Assembly (NCBI RefSeq): GCF_003334305.1 | Contig: NZ_QOWS01000011.1 | From: Escherichia coli | GTDB lineage: Bacteria > Pseudomonadota > Gammaproteobacteria > Enterobacterales > Enterobacteriaceae | Length of the DNA: 64,000 bases | Direction: 5' to 3' (one strand) | Shown: piece by piece, positions 22,601 through 58,944 of the stretch | Layout of the letters: each line of letters begins with the position of its first letter | Position numbering within the stretch: position 1 is the stretch's first letter | Program-made: the position numbers and the translations under genes | The notes under the pieces: generated by a model | The model's input: the letters and a program-made list of their open reading frames with translations, nothing else | Told to the model about the DNA's origin: nothing | Database searches by the model: none

Positions 22601-22629
22601 AAAAAGCCTGCTAGAAAGCAGGCTTTTTT
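22601..22629. terminator. hairpin terminator after ldtA, next to asnV
   Basis: aaaaagcctgc tagaa agcaggctttttt: GC stem flanked by A-run and T-run. Confidence 0.6.
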
Positions 22630-22634
22630 GAATT

Positions 22635-22710
22635 TGGCTCCTCTGACTGGACTCGAACCAGTGACATACGGATTAACAGTCCGCCGTTCTACCGACTGAA
22701 CTACAGAGGA
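22635..22710 (-). tRNA. asnV: tRNA-Asn (GUU)
   Basis: 76-nt reverse complement of TCCTCTGTAGTTCAGTCGGTAGAACGGCGGACTGTTAATCCGTATGTCACTGGTTCGAGTCCAGTCAGAGGAGCCA; anticodon loop CTGTTAA. Confidence 0.95.
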
Positions 22711-25043: not shown

Positions 25044-25119
25044 TGGCTCCTCTGACTGGACTCGAACCAGTGACATACGGATTAACAGTCCGCCGTTCTA
25101 CCGACTGAACTACAGAGGA
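25044..25119 (-). tRNA. asnU: tRNA-Asn (GUU)
   Basis: Sequence identical to the tRNA at 22635-22710. Confidence 0.95.
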
Positions 25120-26867: not shown

Positions 26868-26943
26868 TCCTCTGTAGTTCAGTCGGTAGAACGGCGGACT
26901 GTTAATCCGTATGTCACTGGTTCGAGTCCAGTCAGAGGAGCCA
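26868..26943 (+). tRNA. asnW: tRNA-Asn (GUU)
   Basis: TCCTCTGTAGTTCAGTCGGTAGAACGGCGGACTGTTAATCCGTATGTCACTGGTTCGAGTCCAGTCAGAGGAGCCA, identical to the other two copies. Confidence 0.95.
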
Positions 26944-27354
26944 AATTTTAGTTTTGAGATATCTCTATGAGTCTCAAAACAGTTAAAAAATAAAAATTAT
27001 TTTTACCCGGTTACCTTGTAAAAAAGTGACCGGGTTTTTTGATTTCTGTGTTTCGTGCGCTTAATCGAGTCTCACGCTTCAGTGAGCAAGTTGCCCCCAA
27101 CAGACATCACGATTCGCAAGGTCAAAAACTCTGTTCCATGAAGTACCGTACAAAGATAAAGAGAAAAATGCCTTATGCGGGATGTCGCTATCGCGTCTTT
27201 ATCGGGAAACTATGCGTTATTGCCACTTTGCCTTCTGTAATCAGAAAAAGAAGAACTGGAATTTTAATAAATATTATTTCTCTGGGAACGGGGATTTTTT
27301 ATAATCAATATGACGAGTTGAACATTATATTTTTTATAAGGGTTATATGAGATT

Positions 27355-27385
27355 AAAGAAATCTGCCGTAAAGACAGATTTCTTT
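27355..27385 (-). terminator. hairpin downstream of yeeN
   Basis: Inverted repeat aaagaaatctg ccgtaaag acagatttcttt; no strong U-run. Confidence 0.4.
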
Positions 27386-27394
27386 AAAAGATAA

Positions 27395-51520: not shown

Positions 51521-54500
51521 CTATATCCGCCGCTGACGACGGCGAACAGGGCGAGGTCGTTTTGTTTTCTCCACCGTGGCGACGCCGGCCAGATAATCGG
51601 CCAGGGCAGCAGGAGAAGGGTGGGTGAAGAGGTCAAGCAACGTCAGGGTGGAAAATTCGTGACGTTGTAACAAAACGTGCAGTTGCACCAGATTCAGCGA
51701 CGTTGCGCCCGCCTCAAAGAAGTTTTCTGCGGGCGTGACAGACTCGCCAACCACCTCGCGGAAGGCGTCGCAAATCAGGCTGACGGTGCTCTCGTCCGCC
51801 GCAATGTGTGGCTGAGAGTGCTCAGGGCATACGCGCGGTGAGCGCTCTGCGCATTGCCCTGCGTGTTTAACGGGAGGCACCAGCGCGGCGAGCGGCAGTT
51901 GCCAGCCGCTTTCATCCTCGGCCATTCGGTTTAGCAATGCGCAATACTGTTCAAACTGGCGCTCCACCTGCCCGGCAGGAAACAGCGCGGCGACAAAATC
52001 CCAGTTAAAGCGCAGTTCGCCTTCGGATTCATAAATCTGGTGATCGAGCCAGACCTGCGGCGTCTGGGAGATGCCCCAGACCGGTTTGAGCAGATTACGC
52101 CGGGCGAGGAAGTTATCCTGCTCAAAGCCCAGTGCGCTGGTAAAGACGACGGGCATCGGAACGGCAGGCACGTTTTGCCGTTGCGCCAGTTGACGCATCA
52201 CGCGGATGGCTGACACATCGCGGTGGTTGAGGTTCTGGCTCAGCCGCTGCTGTAGTGACTGCGCGCTGTGCAGCCAGCTTTCGCCGGGATGCCAGCTCAG
52301 CAGCATCAGCGAGGTGAAATCGCCCAGAATCTGGTTGATTTGCGGGTGCAGCGGTCGCCTGTCGAAAAGCGTAAGGTTAAGCGTGAACTCAGGCTGTGCA
52401 CTCCATGCAGAGAGAACCGTTGACCACACCGACAACAGTACGGCCGACGGGGTGAGATGGGCGTCAGCCGCCCGTTTTTTCAGCCGATGCCAGCGCGTGC
52501 TGTCCAGTGCGCCGTTCAGGCGGGCGAAGCGCGGTGTTTCAACCTCCTGAGGCAAGCAGCGCAGCGGCAACGCAGGCGCCGGAGGAATATCATCAAGCTG
52601 CGCCTGCCACCATGCCAGAGAATCTGGATTGGGCGACTGTAGCGAGGGTTGTTGCAGATAATCCCTGAAGGTGACGGGCAGCGGCGGAAGCAGCTGTTGC
52701 GGGTAGCGGTAGCCGTGCTCCAGCTCCGCCAGCAGGATCTGCATGCTCAGACCGTCAAGCAACAGGTTATCCAGACACAGCCACAGGCGGGCAGGCATCC
52801 CGTCCACGTATCCGACCTGGAGATCGAATACCGGCCACACTTCGGGGTTGAGTACCTGATGCGCCAGTTTTTCGCGCACCCGCAACGCCTCTTCAGGCGT
52901 ATGGAGGGTGTGTGCGGGTATCACCCAAGGGGGCGTCTGTTCGAGCACCTGTTGCTGTCCATCACGCACGATGGCGCGCAGCATATCGTGGCGGGCGATT
53001 AATCGGTTCCAGACCGTCTCCAGCCGGGTGAGGTCCAGATCGGCAATTTCAAATTCAACAAAGAAATGTGAGCCGACGCCGCCCAGGGCAAAGCCCGGCT
53101 GACGCCCCACCAGGTAAGCCTGCTGCACGTCGGTAAGCGCAAAGGGCTGGTAGCGATCTTCAGGGGAGTGGACGAATGGTTGTTCGACCGGGACGTCGGT
53201 TTTCCGCAGCGTGGCGGCAAAATCCGCCAGCCGGGGATGATTAAACAGGTCGCTTAATTGCGCTTCATAACCTGCCTGATGAAGTTGCCCGGTCAGACGG
53301 GTCGCCAGCAGGCTATCGCCGCCTTGCTGGAAGAAGTCGGTTTCTCTGGTGACATTGCCAGTTGATAAGAGTTGCTGCCAGAGGGCGGCAACCTGTTTTT
53401 CAATGTCGCCCTGGGGTAAATCCGCTTCGGCCGGGTTTTCCGCTTCAGGGGTATGACGACGCTTCAGCGCCTGGTAGTCAATTTTCCCGTTAGCCGTCAG
53501 CGGTAAGGCGTCGAGGAATACGATCCGTTGCGGCACCATCCACCCCGGCAGACGCCCGGCGAGGGCGGCCTGAAGTTGACGGGGATCGCGGCGCACCTGC
53601 CTGTCAGGACATTGTACGAGGAAGCGTTGTAACCCCGCGACCTCATCGCCATGCTGACAGTTGAAGCCGGCCGCGCTAAATAATGCCGCCCAGTCGGCGC
53701 TGTTATGCAGCAAGGCCTCCGGCTGCCCATTGGTTAACAGGAGCGTGCTGAGTAGGGCGGACGGCGTTAACTGGCGAAACTCCATCACGTAGAGCAGCGC
53801 GCCGGGAACGGCAAGCTGTTGTAATGTCGCAAGGAGCCCGGGATCTTCCGGCAGCAGACGATGCAGGGCGTTATTAAGCCAGATAATGTCCGCCGAGTGA
53901 GCGTGCGTCGCCAGCGTGTCTGCATTCCAGAGGGACAGACGGGCGCCAGGCCAGGGGGCGAGCCTCTGCCGGGCGCTCAGCAGCATCTCCTGGCTCTGCT
54001 CAAGCCCGACATACTCAATCTGTCCGGCGTTGAGCTGTGCTAACAGCGATTCTGCGGCGCGGCCAGTGCGGGTTCCCACCTCAAGCAGGCGTACCGGGCG
54101 CTGTAAGCGCTGTGCAAGCTGTTGGCAAATTGTCGCCAGTTCCTGAATATACGGGGCGCTGGCCGGATGGTTAAAGGCCAGGCTTTCCGGCGACCACTGC
54201 GCGTCGTTCAGTAACGACAGTTCGTTACGGGCACCGCGAAGAATTTGCGATAACGTTAAATCATGTCCGCTGAAGTGCGGGTGCTCATCCTCGCGTTCTT
54301 CACCAGCGCAGACCTGATAACCTTCAGCAGCGGGCTTCAGTCGCCGTTGTGTCACCAGAAATGCTAACCAGCGTTCCACCACGGCCTGCCAGCGCGGCTG
54401 GATAGCGAGTGAGTTCATCAGGGGGAGAGGATCGGCGCCAGCGGTGTGACCCGGCTTCAGTTTTAGCAGGCGATGCTGAAGGAAATCGGCTACCTGTTCT

Positions 54501-57500
54501 GCGGAGATCTCTGGCGAGATGGCGCAACAGGGCAACGTTCCCGCAAGCGTGTGCCACGCCTGCGGCAGTGCCGGGTTCCGATGATCGGTAACGCAAAAAG
54601 CCTCGCCCTGAGGAACAACGTATGCCGCCAGCGTTTTTTCTTTTTCGCCGATCGCCAGAACGGTTGCTTGTTTCACCCCCGCCAGCTGGCTGAGCGCGCT
54701 TTCGATTTCGCCCAGCTCGATGCGATATCCTCCGACTTTGACCTGCTTGTCGCGACGACCGAGGAACTCGATTGTGCCATCTGGCCAGTAGCAGCCGAGA
54801 TCGCCGGTGCGATACCAGCGCTCGTCCGGGAGCGTCAAAAATTGCTGCTCGCTACGCAGGGGATCGTTGAAATAGCCTTCCGCGACCCCAATGCCGCCAA
54901 TCCATAATTCACCCGGCACCCAGTCAGGGCAGTCCCGGCCCTGTTCATCCACCACCCGGTAGCGTTGGTTGGTTAGCGGAAAACCGTAAGGGATGGAGCG
55001 CCAGTGGGCGGGGACGTCGTGAATTTCGCAGGCGTTAGACCAGATAGACGCCTCGGTGGCGCCGCCCATCGCGATAAATTGTCCTTGTGGCCGGAAGGCC
55101 CGATAACGGGCGGGGAGGTCAAGCCCGATCCAGTCGCCGGAAAGCATCACTGCGCGCAGGTTTTCCGGCGTGGCGTCGGCGAAACCTTCACACCAGGTCA
55201 GCAGCATATCGAACAGCGCCGGGACGCTGTTCCAGAGCGTGACCTGATGGCGCTGGATCAGCTCACACCATGCGTGAGGATCGCGCCGTTGATTTTCCAT
55301 CACCATCACCAGCGCGCCGCCCGCGCGCAGTACGCCAAAAATGTCGTAAACCGATAAATCAAAATGTAGGGCGGAGAGGGCCAGCACCCTGTCATGCGGG
55401 CCAACCTGATAGCGGGTATTGATATCGCAACAGGTGTTAAGCGCTCCCCGGTGAGAAATGACTACCCCTTTCGGCGTACCGGTAGAGCCGGAGGTGTAGA
55501 TAATGTAGGCCGGTTGCGTGGGGGCGCGTACTACCGGGTTGGCGATCGGCTCCGCCTCAATGGCCTGCTGCCAGGCAAGGACGGGAATATCGTCTGACCC
55601 GGCGCTGGCGTCGTGCTGACAAATGAGCACCAGCCGGACGCTGGCGTCAGCGTAGATTTTCTCGCGCCGTGCGGCAGGCTGATCCAGCGAAACCGGAACG
55701 TAAACCGCCCCGGCCAGCAGGACGGCCAGAACCGCAACAAGTTGTCCTGCGCCTTTCGACATCGTGATAGCCACATTATCGCCGGGCTGAACCCCGCACT
55801 CGATTAACCTGCCCGCGCAACGGCGGGCATAGTCTGTCAGCTCATGATAATTCCACTGATAACGCATGTCCGTTACCGCCAGCGCCTGCGGCTGTTGCAG
55901 AGCGATACGGAAAATGCCTTCATGCAGCAAGCCTTCGGGAATGGGGGCGCCGGTGGCGTTGACCCGTTCGCGTATCGCGCGCTGGCTGGCGGGCATCATA
56001 TCTGCGAACGGCTTTTGCCAGGCGCTTTCGTCATCGCAGAGTTGGTTAATCAACTGGCAGTAGGCGTCGAACAATGTTTCGACTAACGCCGGAGGGAACA
56101 GCGCGTCGTTGCTGTCCCATTGTAGCCAGACCTCGCCGTGATGCTCGAACGCCAGATGATCTATCCAGACCTGCGGCGTTTGCGAGATGCCCCATTCCGG
56201 CTCGCCCAACGGCGATTCTGCGCGGCTGCTGTAGAGGGAACGCCCCAGATTGCTGGTAAATACCACCGGGGCGCCGTGGGGGTAGCGCTGCTGGCGTTTG
56301 AGTTCACGGAGTAATTCGACGCCGGACCAGTGGCGATGCTCCCAGTCCTCCGTAAACGTGAGCTGGTTTTTACGCGCCAGGTTGCTGACGGTATCGCCAT
56401 CGCAGGCGGTATCCAGCAGAAGAATATTGGTGAAGTCGGCAAGCATCGCGCCAACCGCCGGGTGCAGCGGCTGGCGGTCGAATAAGGTGATGTTAAGCAG
56501 CAGACGCGTCAGGCCGCCCCAGCGAGCCAGCACGGCAGAAAAACAGGTCGCCAGTGCCATTGTCGGCGTCACGCCATACTCGCCGGCCCGGTTGCTAAAG
56601 GCGTGCCAGCGTGTTGCCGGGACAATCATGCGGCGTCGGGTATTACGGACTTCACGTAGCGTGGCGGGTTCGCAGGCCAGCGGCAAGACGGGCGCGGGGG
56701 GAAGCGTCGATGCTTTCGCCAGCCAGTAAGCGCGCGCGTCGTCTCTCAGTGGTTGATTGATCTTCTGCTGGTGCAGCAAATACGAGCGGAAATCATAGCG
56801 GGTGTCGATAGCCGGCAGCGATTCTCCGGCCAGCAGGGCGTTAAGCTCATCGAAGAAAAGCGTAAAGCTGGAGGCATCCATAATCAGCAGGTCAATATTG
56901 ACATGGAGGCGGTGGCGATTGTCCGGCAAGAGCGTCAGCTGAAAATCAAACGTTTCGCCGATTTCCACGCGTAAAAGACGGTGGCTCAGGCGCTGGCGCA
57001 GTGCGTCCAGATAGGCCTGGCGGCTTTCAGCGTCGTTATGGCGTAAATCATGAACGGTGACGCCGTTCCAGTAAGGTTGCGGTAGCCAGACCTGCTGCCC
57101 GTCGGGGCGAAAGGCGATATGCAGCATTGGGTGGCGTTGCAGCAAGGTCGTGATGGCCTGCTCCAGCTGCGACGCCGTCAGACAATGGCCTTCAAACTCC
57201 TGATACAGGTGGCAACCCACGCCGCCAAGCGTCTGCCCCGGCATGCGGCCCGTCAGGTAGGCGTGCTGTACTGGCGTCAATGGGAAGGGCGTACTTTCGG
57301 TCATGTTCGGCCAGGATGATTCGTCGGGCGGCGTTTCTTCTTCCGCGTTCTCCGGCGACCGGCTGAGCATTAACTGGTTCCATGCCGCCAGCGTGGGGGC
57401 GGCATACAGCTCGCGAAGGGTAAGGCGGTAGCCATTTTTACGAAACCAGTGTAACCATCTCATCAATCTTATGGAATCCAGGCCGGCCTGGATCAGGTTG

Positions 57501-57628
57501 CTCTCTTCATGTAACTGCTGCGGCGTTAAATTCAGTTCCTGTATGAGCCGCTCGCGTAATTGTTGGTAATCAGCCGCGTGGCGGTTGTCCGGTACCAGCG
57601 AATCCTGAGATGGTGCGCCAGAAATCAT
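51521..57628 (-). CDS. irp2: Irp2 / HMWP2, yersiniabactin NRPS
   Basis: 2035 aa from ATG 57628 ([24 protein letters not shown]); adenylation core [12 protein letters not shown], cyclisation-domain [11 protein letters not shown], carrier motif FFQQGGDSL. Confidence 0.95.
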
Positions 57629-57667
57629 TCTTCCTCCTGATGGCACGTCTTACCGAAAAGCATTACT

Positions 57668-57739
57668 AATATGAGAATAATAATTATTAACAATTGAATG
57701 CTACCCGAAACGGGTTTATTTATGCCCGTTTCGGGTTGG
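57668..57739 (-). promoter_or_regulatory. irp2 promoter region: Fur-box-like site and YbtA-box palindrome
   Basis: aatatgagaataataattattaacaattg (57668-57696) and ctacccgaaacgggtttatttatgcccgtttcgggt (57701-57738), the same palindrome as at fyuA. Confidence 0.6.
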
Positions 57740-57755
57740 TAACAGGCGGAAAGAA

Positions 57756-57786
57756 CAGAGGCCCGGATGAGGTATCCGGGCCTCTG
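57756..57786 (-). terminator. hairpin terminator after ybtA
   Basis: cagaggcccggat gaggt atccgggcctctg, 33 bp 3' of the ybtA stop. Confidence 0.6.
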
Positions 57787-57818
57787 TCAGGGAGGAGTTT
57801 AGGGGGGCGCGACCCCGG

Positions 57819-58778
57819 TTACATCCCGCGTTTAAAGGTCGAAGGAGTTACGCCAAACTGTTTCTGGAAGGCGGCAGAGAAATGGCTGGCGTTGGCATAG
57901 CCCAGATCGGCCGCCACCGTCATGACGGAGGTATTGCCGTTGGCCAGGCGTCTTCTGGCTTCCTGCATTCGTTCAGCCTGAAACAGGCCATAGACGCTGT
58001 TGTTGAACAGAACGCGGAAGCCTCGCTTAATTTTGAGAACGCTCAGACCGGACTCTCTGGCCAGCTCCGCGACGCCCGGCGCTTGCGTCAGATCAGCCAG
58101 CAGCAGATCCTTCGCCCGCAGCAGTTTCTGGCGTTCCATCGGGTTGAAGTGGCAGGAGAGGCAACTGGCGTCTTCGCGATGTTCATCCAGCACCAGGCTG
58201 AGCATGACCAGACTTTGCCCCTGCAACCATAGCGTCGACGGCTTTTGTTCATGACTGAAGCCGCCGTGCATGCGCATCAGCGCGTGACGCAAGGCCTGAG
58301 CCGTTAAGTGGGTTTCAGCATTACAACGCTGCTGCTGGCAACAGCAGTGGGAGTCGATCTTATTCTTAATGACCGCGCTAATATCCGGCACCCACAGCGC
58401 GAGGGTTTCAGGGCTGAAGGAGAGGGTAATGCTCTCGAATCGGCCACAATAGGAGGCGCTGCCGCGACAGTCTGGCGTATGGGTAATGTAATGGCGATTG
58501 CGCGCAAGCTCCCAGTCGGTGTGGCGCCGGAGTCCCTGAATCGCAAAGCGCGATGTGCCTTCCAGGATGCACGAGAAGTTAATCCTGCCCAGATCGTCGT
58601 GTAGCTGCAACGTCTCTGGCCGCGCAAAATGGCCCCTCCAGAGCAAAATATCCATACCTTCCTGCAACGAACAGCGCAGCAGTTCACACTGAGCAGGAAT
58701 ATTGCCATCGTTTGCAGGTTTCCCGACCACCAACTGGTGAATAGAGATTTCAGATTGCGTTTGCGGTGACTCCGTCAT
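57819..58778 (-). CDS. ybtA: YbtA, AraC-family activator of the yersiniabactin regulon
   Basis: 319 aa; C-terminal AraC HTH (...GYANASHFSAAFQKQFGVTPSTFKRG). Confidence 0.9.
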   Translation of the reverse strand: MTESPQTQSEISIHQLVVGKPANDGNIPAQCELLRCSLQEGMDILLWRGHFARPETLQLHDDLGRINFSCILEGTSRFAIQGLRRHTDWELARNRHYITHTPDCRGSASYCGRFESITLSFSPETLALWVPDISAVIKNKIDSHCCCQQQRCNAETHLTAQALRHALMRMHGGFSHEQKPSTLWLQGQSLVMLSLVLDEHREDASCLSCHFNPMERQKLLRAKDLLLADLTQAPGVAELARESGLSVLKIKRGFRVLFNNSVYGLFQAERMQEARRRLANGNTSVMTVAADLGYANASHFSAAFQKQFGVTPSTFKRGM

Positions 58779-58848
58779 GACCTGGTTATCTCCCTGTGGC
58801 TTAGACCAATGCGGGTATAAATAGAACCGAATGGGGTAGATGAGTTAT

Positions 58849-58875
58849 TGATAATGGTTATTATTCACATTAATT
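58849..58875. promoter_or_regulatory. Fur-box-like site in divergent ybtA / ybtP intergenic region
   Basis: ttgataatggttattattcacattaat resembles the GATAATGATAATCATTATC Fur consensus. Confidence 0.5.
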
Positions 58876-58944
58876 CTCAGAACGCCACCCTGAATTGTCG
58901 TTTTTGGCGTCCGTAAAAATTCATCAGGAAATTCAGTTACTCCC

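What the first reader, a model, noticed from the sequence alone, without database searches (positions are those of the whole stretch)
57700..57739. Second copy of the YbtA-box palindrome in the irp2 promoter
ctacccgaaacgggtttatttatgcccgtttcgggt is near-identical to the fyuA copy, again next to an AT-rich Fur-like site (57668-57696) and just downstream of the ybtA terminator. The ybtA-ybtP spacer shows only a weaker related segment.
Basis: partly seen in the sequence, partly recalled or inferred. Interest (0 to 1): 0.35.

Follow-up and report, generated by a model that had tools for sequence, protein, structure and literature searches.

The report
Known YbtA activator site, irp2 promoter
The palindrome is real, but it is the already described pair of YbtA activator sites, next to a Fur repressor site, that puts the yersiniabactin synthetase operon irp2 under iron and siderophore control, so it is ordinary.

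Summary
The quoted 36-mer lies at 57701-57736. It holds a perfect 12+12 bp inverted repeat (57703-14 / 57725-36) and is 32/36 identical to the copy upstream of fyuA (38418-38453).

It sits in the 190-bp ybtA-irp2 spacer of a Yersinia high-pathogenicity island carried on an E. coli chromosome. The order on the minus strand is: ybtA terminator-like hairpin, box, Fur box (57673-57691, joint best Fur match in the window), irp2 ATG (57628).

This is the published "repeated sequences" (RS) YbtA binding site of the irp2 promoter. The same Fur box has been gel-shifted by Fur.

Two refinements:
- **Direct repeat, not palindrome.** In 22 promoters next to YbtA homologues, the conserved unit is a 16-bp repeat (consensus AAACCGATTCGGGTAG) present twice in the same orientation, 21 bp apart. 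A TATNAT hexamer follows 23-28 nt on. The long palindrome is peculiar to the irp2 and fyuA copies.
- **The ybtP copy is not weaker.** A matrix built only from non-island relatives scores irp2 44.8, ybtP 43.9 and fyuA 41.4 bits. The next unrelated hit scores 5.6.

Verdict: already known, low interest.

The parts
57722..57737 (-). RS1, promoter-distal YbtA half-site: AACCCGAAACGGGCAT
   Evidence: Half-site matrix built from non-island relatives scores it 14.7 bits. It is part of the 37-bp bipartite hit of 44.8 bits. Invariant in the five sampled E. coli, K. pneumoniae, Salmonella and K. oxytoca sequences.
57701..57716 (-). RS2, promoter-proximal YbtA half-site: AACCCGTTTCGGGTAG. Its GGTAGC end occupies the place of a -35 hexamer.
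   Evidence: Joint top half-site score in the whole window, 20.8 bits, tied with the identical fyuA RS2. Identical 16-mer upstream of fyuA. Invariant in E. coli, Klebsiella and Salmonella, and differing at one position (GGGTGG for GGGTAG) in Serratia symbiotica. The -35 overlap is inferred from 17-bp spacing to TATTAT.
57703..57736 (.).
   Evidence: As single-stranded RNA it folds at -22.1 kcal/mol, z -5.9. Across the family the mean arm complementarity is only 7.3/12.
57673..57691 (.). Fur box (minus strand GTTAATAATTATTATTCTC)
   Evidence: 15/19 to GATAATGATAATCATTATC, the joint best match in the window. Identical to the irp2 site whose promoter fragment was shifted by purified Fur (PMC11225919, section 3.5, read).
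57677..57682 (-). -10-like hexamer TATTAT inside the Fur box (inferred)
   Evidence: A TATNAT-type hexamer starts 23-28 nt after the first G of the RS2 GGG in 21 of 22 family promoters, and at exactly 26 nt in 14 of them. No sigma-70 consensus promoter was called by the scan, as expected for an activator-dependent promoter. The transcription start site is not determined here.
57755..57787 (-). Terminator-like hairpin after ybtA (14-bp perfect stem, 5-nt loop, then TTCTTTCC)
   Evidence: -29.3 kcal/mol, z -6.7. The core of the stem is kept in K. oxytoca. It was not called by the terminator scan because of its weak T-tract.
57819..58778 (-). ybtA, the AraC-type regulator that reads the box
   Evidence: ORF, translation, 99% identical to 'yersiniabactin transcriptional regulator YbtA', RefSeq annotation.
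51521..57628 (-). irp2 (HMWP2), the first gene of the regulated operon. The true ATG is at 57628, with AGGAGG at 57633-57638.
   Evidence: The RefSeq irp2 length of 6108 nt matches 51521-57628. The sequence is shown. The longest ORF begins at a GTG at 57646.
38418..38454 (-). Sister copy: RS1+RS2 upstream of fyuA
   Evidence: 41.4 bits. Conserved in K. oxytoca, K. michiganensis, K. indica and R. ornithinolytica.
58803..58839 (+). Sister copy: RS1+RS2 upstream of ybtP, with a Fur box at 58850-58868
   Evidence: 43.9 bits. Fur match 15/19. No hairpin potential.

Best explanation
The element is the YbtA operator of the irp2 promoter in the yersiniabactin (ybt) locus. It consists of two 16-bp sites, RS1 (57737-57722) and RS2 (57716-57701), read on the minus strand. 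They lie in the same orientation, 21 bp (two helical turns) apart. Each is probably contacted by one subunit of the AraC-type regulator YbtA loaded with metal-yersiniabactin.

RS2 abuts or overlaps the position of a missing -35 hexamer, so bound YbtA recruits RNA polymerase to a promoter that lacks a usable -35. This is the class-II arrangement, like AraC at I1-I2. Immediately downstream, a Fur box (57673-57691) covers the -10-like TATTAT, so iron-loaded Fur blocks the promoter when iron is plentiful.

The net logic is that the irp2-irp1-ybtUTE operon is transcribed only when iron is low and the siderophore is present.

What is shown here: the sequence, its position, its conservation, and its match to a motif derived from independent relatives. 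What comes from the literature: YbtA binding and activation, and Fur binding. What is inferred: the exact -35/-10 assignment, one subunit per repeat, and the direct-repeat reading.
For: - **Context.** The ybtA and irp2 annotation sits on identical E. coli DNA.
- **Three copies.** Similar copies lie upstream of irp2, fyuA and ybtP, each followed by a Fur-like site.
- **Independent motif.** A matrix built from 17 sites beside YbtA homologues of at most 57% identity (Pluralibacter, Xenorhabdus, Pectobacterium, Erwinia, Burkholderia, Xanthomonas, Agarivorans, Ralstonia) picks out exactly those three places in 64 kb. Scores are 44.8, 43.9 and 41.4 bits, and the next unrelated hit is 5.6. It prefers the promoter-sense orientation, 44.8 against 20.6 bits.
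- **Constant geometry.** The family shows 21-bp spacing and a TATNAT hexamer 23-28 nt after RS2.
- **Conservation against diverged flanks.** In K. oxytoca (87% identity overall) the box and Fur box differ at 1 of 37 and 0 of 19 positions, while the flanks diverge. In K. indica, similarity to the fyuA upstream region begins at the box. The five sampled E. coli, Klebsiella and Salmonella sequences vary only outside RS1 and RS2.
- **Literature.** RS elements are YbtA binding sites in the irp2, fyuA and ybtA/irp6 promoters (PMC5634559; PMC8725597). A ybtA deletion lowers irp2, fyuA and ybtP about twofold, a fur deletion raises them 100- to 1000-fold, and Fur shifts the irp2 promoter carrying the identical box (PMC11225919).
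Against:
- The mBio 2022 authors still call these sites 'putative' or 'predicted' in E. coli.
- The direct-versus-inverted question is not settled by arm identity alone: mean 7.5/12 direct against 7.3/12 inverted. This is because each half-site is itself a small dyad, CCG-N3-CGG. The direct reading rests on the asymmetric flanks (5' A/G, 3' TAG in both repeats) and on the orientation preference of the matrix.
- No transcription start site is known for irp2 in this analysis, so the -10/-35 assignment is inferred.
- The third repeat (RS3) reported for the ybtA/ybtP spacer was not recovered by the half-site matrix.
Confidence: 0.93

Rival explanations
1. The palindrome acts as a nucleic-acid hairpin. 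It would be a second, back-up intrinsic terminator or insulator for ybtA read-through transcripts, or a terminator for antisense transcripts on the plus strand, rather than (or in addition to) a protein-binding site.
For: The irp2 and fyuA copies fold strongly as RNA (-22.1 and -20.2 kcal/mol, z -5.9 and -5.3). The terminator scan flagged the RS2 mini-hairpin ACCCGAAACGGGT followed by TTATTTATGC on the plus strand. The box lies directly after the ybtA terminator-like hairpin, whose T-tract is weak.
Against: The equally high-scoring ybtP copy has no hairpin potential (z -0.6). Across 22 family sites, arm complementarity averages 7.3/12. The fyuA copy keeps a mismatch in the stem (ACAGG) in four of five species, with no compensating change. 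Conservation is of sequence, including the unpaired spacer ATAAATA and the 3' TAG, not of pairing. On the minus strand no T-run follows the hairpin. No gene on the plus strand reads into it.
Confidence: 0.04
2. It is a dispersed repetitive extragenic palindrome or a remnant of a mobile element, with no specific regulatory role.
For: It is a repeated palindromic sequence in intergenic DNA of a mobile genomic island.
Against: It occurs only at the three ybt promoters in 64 kb. A pattern scan of one genome for each of 100,044 species found it only at ybt promoters of Klebsiella and Raoultella, plus six unrelated hairpins. It keeps a fixed distance to the Fur box and -10 hexamer, and co-occurs with YbtA homologues across beta- and gamma-proteobacteria.
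Confidence: 0.01
3. The site is bound as a true inverted repeat by a symmetric YbtA dimer, as the first reader's 'palindrome with half-sites' implies, not as tandem direct repeats.
For: The dyad is perfect at 12/12 in irp2 and 11/12 in fyuA and Serratia. The literature proposes a homodimeric complex (PMC5634559) and speaks of 'pseudopalindromes' (PMC8725597).
Against: Family position counts for RS1 and RS2 agree in the same orientation, including the asymmetric positions: position 1 is A/G and never C, and positions 14-16 are TAG in both. The matrix scores the promoter-sense orientation 22-24 bits higher. The Ralstonia, Burkholderia, Xanthomonas and ybtP sites are clearly direct, for example CCGATGCGGG / CCGATCCGGG. 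AraC-family dimers commonly use direct repeats 21 bp apart (established knowledge, not tested here).
Confidence: 0.15

Closest known systems
[quoted passage not shown] 1996, PMID 8930916; Anisimov et al. 2005, PMID 15861813 and 16019159)
   Same: Same locus, same genes, and the same position between ybtA and irp2 next to a Fur box. The region is present in 2266 of 5426 complete E. coli genomes. This is the element itself.
   Different: Nothing substantive differs. Within 57665-57745 this window carries a minority allele at two positions outside the repeats (57697 and 57668). It also differs from the comparison sequences in the terminator loop (57770).
AraC I1-I2 half-sites at the araBAD promoter (established knowledge, not tested here)
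   Same: Two same-orientation sites for an AraC-family regulator, 21 bp apart. The promoter-proximal one overlaps the -35 region of a promoter with a poor -35. Activation depends on a ligand.
   Different: The half-site sequence is different, and here each half-site has its own internal dyad. The partner repressor is Fur rather than CRP and looping.
PchR-box of Pseudomonas aeruginosa pyochelin promoters (Michel et al. 2005, PMID 16194235; reference seen, content recalled, not tested)
   Same: An operator of a siderophore-sensing AraC-type regulator homologous to YbtA. It lies in promoters of biosynthesis and receptor genes that also carry Fur boxes.
   Different: No PchR-box sequence was compared here, so similarity at the DNA level is untested.
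Fur box (19-bp GATAATGATAATCATTATC)
   Same: The adjacent 57673-57691 matches at 15/19 and is identical to a sequence in a Fur-shifted irp2 promoter fragment.
   Different: It is the neighbour of the finding, not the finding itself.

Membership tests
YbtA binding site (RS1/RS2) of a ybt promoter | Lies upstream of a YbtA-regulated operon (irp2, fyuA or ybtP/ybtA) in a ybt locus that encodes YbtA | tested here: met
   It lies between ybtA (57819-58778) and irp2 (ATG 57628). The RefSeq names sit on identical DNA.
YbtA binding site (RS1/RS2) of a ybt promoter | Sequence shared with the sites of the other ybt promoters | tested here: met
   32/36 identical to the fyuA copy. All three promoters align over the box. 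They give the three top bipartite matrix hits in the window.
YbtA binding site (RS1/RS2) of a ybt promoter | Two repeats at fixed spacing, immediately upstream of a Fur box and -10 region | tested here: met
   21-bp spacing. TATTAT starts 25 nt after the first G of the RS2 GGG. The Fur box matches at 15/19.
YbtA binding site (RS1/RS2) of a ybt promoter | Conserved where flanking non-coding DNA diverges, and co-occurring with YbtA homologues | tested here: met
   K. oxytoca, S. symbiotica, Klebsiella and Salmonella plasmids. 22 promoters beside homologues of 41-79% identity.
YbtA binding site (RS1/RS2) of a ybt promoter | Physical binding by YbtA, and loss of activation when the repeats are mutated | not testable with these tools
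   Reported by Fetherston 1996 and Anisimov 2005 as cited in PMC5634559, PMC8725597 and PMC11225919. The primary papers are not held.
Fur box (neighbouring element) | Match to the 19-bp 9-1-9 consensus, overlapping core promoter elements | tested here: met
   57673-57691 matches at 15/19, the joint best in 64 kb. It is identical to the sequence in the EMSA-positive irp2 fragment.
Rho-independent terminator (rival reading of the palindrome) | G+C-rich hairpin followed by a T-run on the transcribed strand, downstream of a gene | tested here: not met
   On the minus strand (the ybtA sense) no T-run follows. The only call is a 5-bp mini-stem on the plus strand with no upstream gene. The hairpin is not conserved in the ybtP copy or across the family.
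Known RNA family (Rfam) | Score at or above a family's gathering threshold | tested here: not met
   The best hit is Thr_leader at 27.8 bits against a threshold of 55, a chance match to two hairpins.

The most novel reading that the evidence does not exclude
The bipartite, same-orientation 37-bp box (2 x AAACCGATTCGGGTAG, 21 bp apart, fixed distance to a Fur-covered -10) is a general operator of YbtA-like regulators. It appears in thiazoline-siderophore clusters across gamma- and beta-proteobacteria: Serratia, Pluralibacter, Xenorhabdus, Pectobacterium, Erwinia, Agarivorans, Xanthomonas, Burkholderia and Ralstonia.

On this reading, the perfect long palindrome in the irp2 and fyuA copies (A3 against T3 cores) is a selected extra. 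It might define a distinct affinity class for the biosynthesis and receptor promoters, or form a hairpin that insulates irp2 from ybtA read-through.
Probability: 0.1. Interest if true: 0.3.

Novelty: already known. Interest (0 to 1): 0.1.

Why it matters
Yersiniabactin is a major virulence and fitness factor of Yersinia, uropathogenic E. coli, Klebsiella and emerging Salmonella plasmids. This operator, together with the Fur box, is the switch that couples synthetase expression to iron limitation and to the siderophore itself. The switch has been described since 1996-2005, so locating it again adds nothing new.

The modest added value is a motif derived from independent relatives. It finds all three island operators with no false positives in 64 kb. 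It also shows the conserved architecture to be a tandem repeat, which could help annotate YbtA-type regulons in other bacteria.

Tried and rejected
- **Intrinsic terminator or RNA hairpin.** Rejected. There is no T-run on the ybtA strand, and the hairpin is absent from the ybtP copy and from most family members.
- **Known RNA family.** Only sub-threshold chance hits.
- **Dispersed repeat or mobile-element remnant.** Rejected by the window scans and by a collection-wide pattern scan. That scan found the palindrome only at ybt promoters, plus six unrelated hairpins in a cyanobacterium, an actinomycete, two clostridia, an acidobacterium and Methylorubrum.
- **Sigma-70 consensus promoter scan.** It found nothing in 57560-57860. 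This is uninformative for an activator-dependent promoter.
- **Recovering RS3 in the ybtA-ybtP spacer with the half-site matrix.** Not recovered. A weak reverse-orientation candidate around 58877-58892 (TTCAGGGTGGCG) was seen by eye only.
- **Reading the primary papers and the 2011 review.** Not held. Searches for a YbtA footprint or a YbtA/micacocidin link found nothing usable.
- **Yersinia sequences.** None were compared directly. The genome-collection pattern scan returned no Yersinia hit, for reasons I did not establish.

Full report
**What is in the sequence**

It contains a perfect inverted repeat: arms ACCCGAAACGGG at 57703-57714 and CCCGTTTCGGGT at 57725-57736, with 10 nt between them. 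The repeat finder also reads the same bases as a direct repeat, CCCGnnnCGGGTT, at 21-bp spacing.

A sister copy lies at 38418-38453 and is 32/36 identical. The exact 12-mer occurs nowhere else in the 64-kb window. Perfect 12-bp inverted repeats with short loops are rare by chance: a mean of 0.095 per dinucleotide shuffle, against six loci observed. At least two of those six are hairpins just after a stop codon (36273-36307 after fyuA, 57755-57787 after ybtA).

**Context**

All genes named in this paragraph are on the minus strand.
- The window from 18901 to 64000 is collinear, at 99.4% identity, with an E. coli chromosome.
- There the genes are annotated fyuA (window 36312-38333), ybtE, ybtT, ybtU, irp1, irp2 (51521-57628) and ybtA (57819-58778).
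- They are followed by the divergent ybtP, ybtQ, ybtX and ybtS.
- This is the Yersinia high-pathogenicity island. The 501 bp around the finding are present in 2266 of 5426 complete E. coli genomes, and on Klebsiella and Salmonella plasmids.

Read on the minus strand, the 190-bp ybtA-irp2 spacer has these parts in order:
- the ybtA stop codon (57819);
- a strong hairpin at 57755-57787 (-29.3 kcal/mol, z -6.7), followed by TTCTTTCC;
- the box;
- an AT-rich stretch containing GTTAATAATTATTATTCTC (57673-57691);
- AGGAGG (57633-57638);
- the irp2 ATG at 57628.

The AT-rich 19-mer matches the Fur consensus at 15/19. That is the joint best match in the whole window, tied with the site in the ybtA-ybtP spacer.

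**What the literature says**

[quoted passage not shown] They also state that YbtA, an AraC-type regulator thought to act as a dimer with yersiniabactin, activates irp2, fyuA and irp6. They credit Fetherston et al. 1996 and two Anisimov et al. 2005 papers (PMC5634559; PMC8725597; PMC11225919).

In Salmonella Infantis pESI:
- A ybtA deletion lowered irp2, fyuA and ybtP about twofold.
- A fur deletion raised them 100- to 1000-fold.
- Purified Fur shifted the irp2 promoter. Its predicted Fur site, GTTAATAATTATTATTCTC, lies 44 bp upstream of the start codon and is identical in sequence and position to the one here.

I could not read the primary footprinting papers. The statement that YbtA physically binds these repeats therefore rests on citations.

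**Conservation within the island**

Five sampled sequences were aligned: three from E. coli, one K. pneumoniae plasmid and one Salmonella plasmid.
- Their differences in the spacer fall outside RS1 and RS2: one between RS2 and the Fur box, two or three just downstream of the Fur box, one in the terminator loop, and three upstream of the hairpin, near the end of ybtA.
- In K. oxytoca, whose island is only 87% identical here, the 37-bp box differs at one spacer position and the Fur box at none, while the DNA upstream diverges.
- Serratia symbiotica (YbtA 79% identical) keeps the box with three changes.
- For the fyuA copy, four Klebsiella and Raoultella species keep the box.
- In K. indica the upstream neighbourhood is different, and similarity begins at the box.

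**Conservation beyond the island**

I took YbtA homologues of 41-79% identity and fetched their loci. In Pluralibacter, Xenorhabdus, Pectobacterium, Erwinia, Burkholderia, Xanthomonas, Agarivorans and Ralstonia, a common design recurs. It is found in the intergenic regions in front of the NRPS, TonB-dependent receptor, ABC-exporter or MFS genes.

The design is two 16-bp repeats with consensus AAACCGATTCGGGTAG, 21 bp start to start. A TATNAT-type hexamer inside a Fur-like box follows, 23-28 nt after the first G of the GGG of the proximal repeat. This holds in 21 of 22 promoters, and the distance is exactly 26 nt in 14 of them.

I built a 37-bp matrix from the 17 non-island sites only and scanned both strands of the window. 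It gave three outstanding hits:
- irp2: 57701-57737, minus strand, 44.8 bits
- ybtP: 58803-58839, plus strand, 43.9 bits
- fyuA: 38418-38454, minus strand, 41.4 bits

The best unrelated position scored 5.6 bits.

**Palindrome or tandem repeat?**

The long dyad is real in irp2 (12/12) and nearly so in fyuA (11/12), but it is not the conserved property.
- The ybtP copy scores as well on the family matrix yet has no hairpin potential (-8.7 kcal/mol, z -0.6, against z -5.9 and -5.3 for irp2 and fyuA).
- Across 22 sites the arms are complementary at only 7.3 of 12 positions on average.

Arm identity alone cannot separate the two readings (direct 7.5/12), because every half-site contains its own small dyad, CCG-N3-CGG. 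The asymmetric positions decide in favour of direct repeats:
- Both repeats begin with A/G and never C.
- Both are followed by TAG (RS1: T 12, A 15, G 13 of 22; RS2: T 20, A 17, G 22 of 22).
- The matrix prefers the promoter-sense orientation by 19-24 bits.

The irp2 palindrome arises because RS1 has an AAA core and RS2 a TTT core.

Two same-orientation sites 21 bp apart, with the proximal one abutting a poor -35 (GGTAGC), is the classic AraC I1-I2 arrangement. That parallel is established knowledge, and the analogy here is inferred.

**Mechanism**

Under low iron, Fur leaves the box that covers the -10. YbtA, loaded with metal-yersiniabactin, occupies RS1 and RS2 and recruits RNA polymerase through the site overlapping -35. 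The irp2-irp1-ybtUTE operon is then transcribed.

- Shown here: sequence, position, conservation and motif membership.
- From the literature: YbtA-dependent activation, Fur repression and Fur binding.
- Inferred: the -10/-35 assignment, a predicted start near 57670, and one subunit per repeat.

**Rivals**

- A terminator or RNA-hairpin role is unlikely. No T-run follows on the ybtA strand, pairing is not conserved, and no compensatory change is seen.
- No Rfam family reaches its threshold.
- A dispersed-repeat origin is excluded by the window scans. A pattern scan of one genome per species also found the palindrome only at ybt promoters, plus six unrelated hairpins.

**Verdict**

Two corrections apply: the conserved unit is a tandem repeat rather than a palindrome, and the ybtP copy is not weaker. 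The element is already known, and interest is low.

Noticed in passing
window 58803-58839 (+), with Fur box 58850-58868: The ybtA-ybtP spacer copy looks weak next to the irp2 copy. It nevertheless scores 43.9 bits on a motif built from non-island relatives, almost equal to irp2, and is closer to the family consensus (CCAATGCGGGTA / CCGAATGGGGTAG).
   Followed up: yes
window 57697, 57668 and 57770: The window is identical over 57665-57745 to only 79 of 2266 island-carrying E. coli genomes; most differ at two positions. In one sampled genome of that majority class the two positions are 57697 (plus-strand A, against G) and 57668 (A, against C), both outside RS1 and RS2. All six comparison sequences also differ from the window in the terminator loop (57770, A against G). 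Position 57668 lies near the predicted transcription start and changes CATATGAG to CATATTAG.
   Followed up: partly
loci L012-L020 (Ralstonia, Serratia, Pluralibacter, Xenorhabdus, Pectobacterium, Erwinia, Burkholderia, Xanthomonas, Agarivorans): The same design (two 16-bp repeats 21 bp apart, then a Fur box) sits in front of NRPS, receptor, ABC and MFS genes beside YbtA homologues across gamma- and beta-proteobacteria. I found no open paper describing this family-wide box.
   Followed up: partly
L017 3961-4066 (Erwinia, upstream of an MFS gene): A good repeat pair (CCCCGATCCGGGTAG / GAACGTCTGCGGGTAG) with no recognisable Fur box or TATNAT hexamer behind it. This was the only one of 22 promoters lacking them.
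   Followed up: no
L015 (Xenorhabdus bovienii contig): A YbtA homologue (56% identity) has repeat pairs plus Fur-like boxes on both sides but no siderophore genes within 3 kb. Its neighbours are cobalamin-type genes, small ORFs and a SymE-like toxin. It may be a remnant of a lost cluster.
   Followed up: no
window 58877-58892: The literature reports a third YbtA repeat (RS3) in the ybtA/ybtP spacer. My half-site matrix did not recover one. By eye, TTCAGGGTGGCG in the ybtA-sense orientation is a weak candidate.
   Followed up: partly
window 58945 versus 59035: The longest ybtP ORF starts at ATG 58945 (600 aa), but RefSeq annotates a start 90 nt downstream (1713 nt). The Serratia and Pluralibacter orthologues are called at 567-568 aa, which fits the shorter form.
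   Followed up: no
window 36273-36307; also 1097-1125, 22601-22628, 27353-27387: Other perfect inverted repeats of 12 bp or more. The one at 36273-36307 lies just past the fyuA stop (36312) and looks like its terminator. The others were not examined.
   Followed up: no
window 22635-22710, 25044-25119, 26868-26943: Three tRNA-Asn (GTT) genes lie 9-14 kb beyond fyuA, among yeeO, cbl and nac. Between them and fyuA are an inverse-autotransporter fragment and a frameshifted Ig-like-domain pseudogene in the matching E. coli record. Island borders were not analysed.
   Followed up: no
window 57657-57790 (+): A sub-threshold Rfam match to the threonine operon leader (27.8 bits against a gathering score of 55, E 0.012). 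It spans the box and the ybtA hairpin, and I judged it a chance match to two adjacent hairpins.
   Followed up: yes
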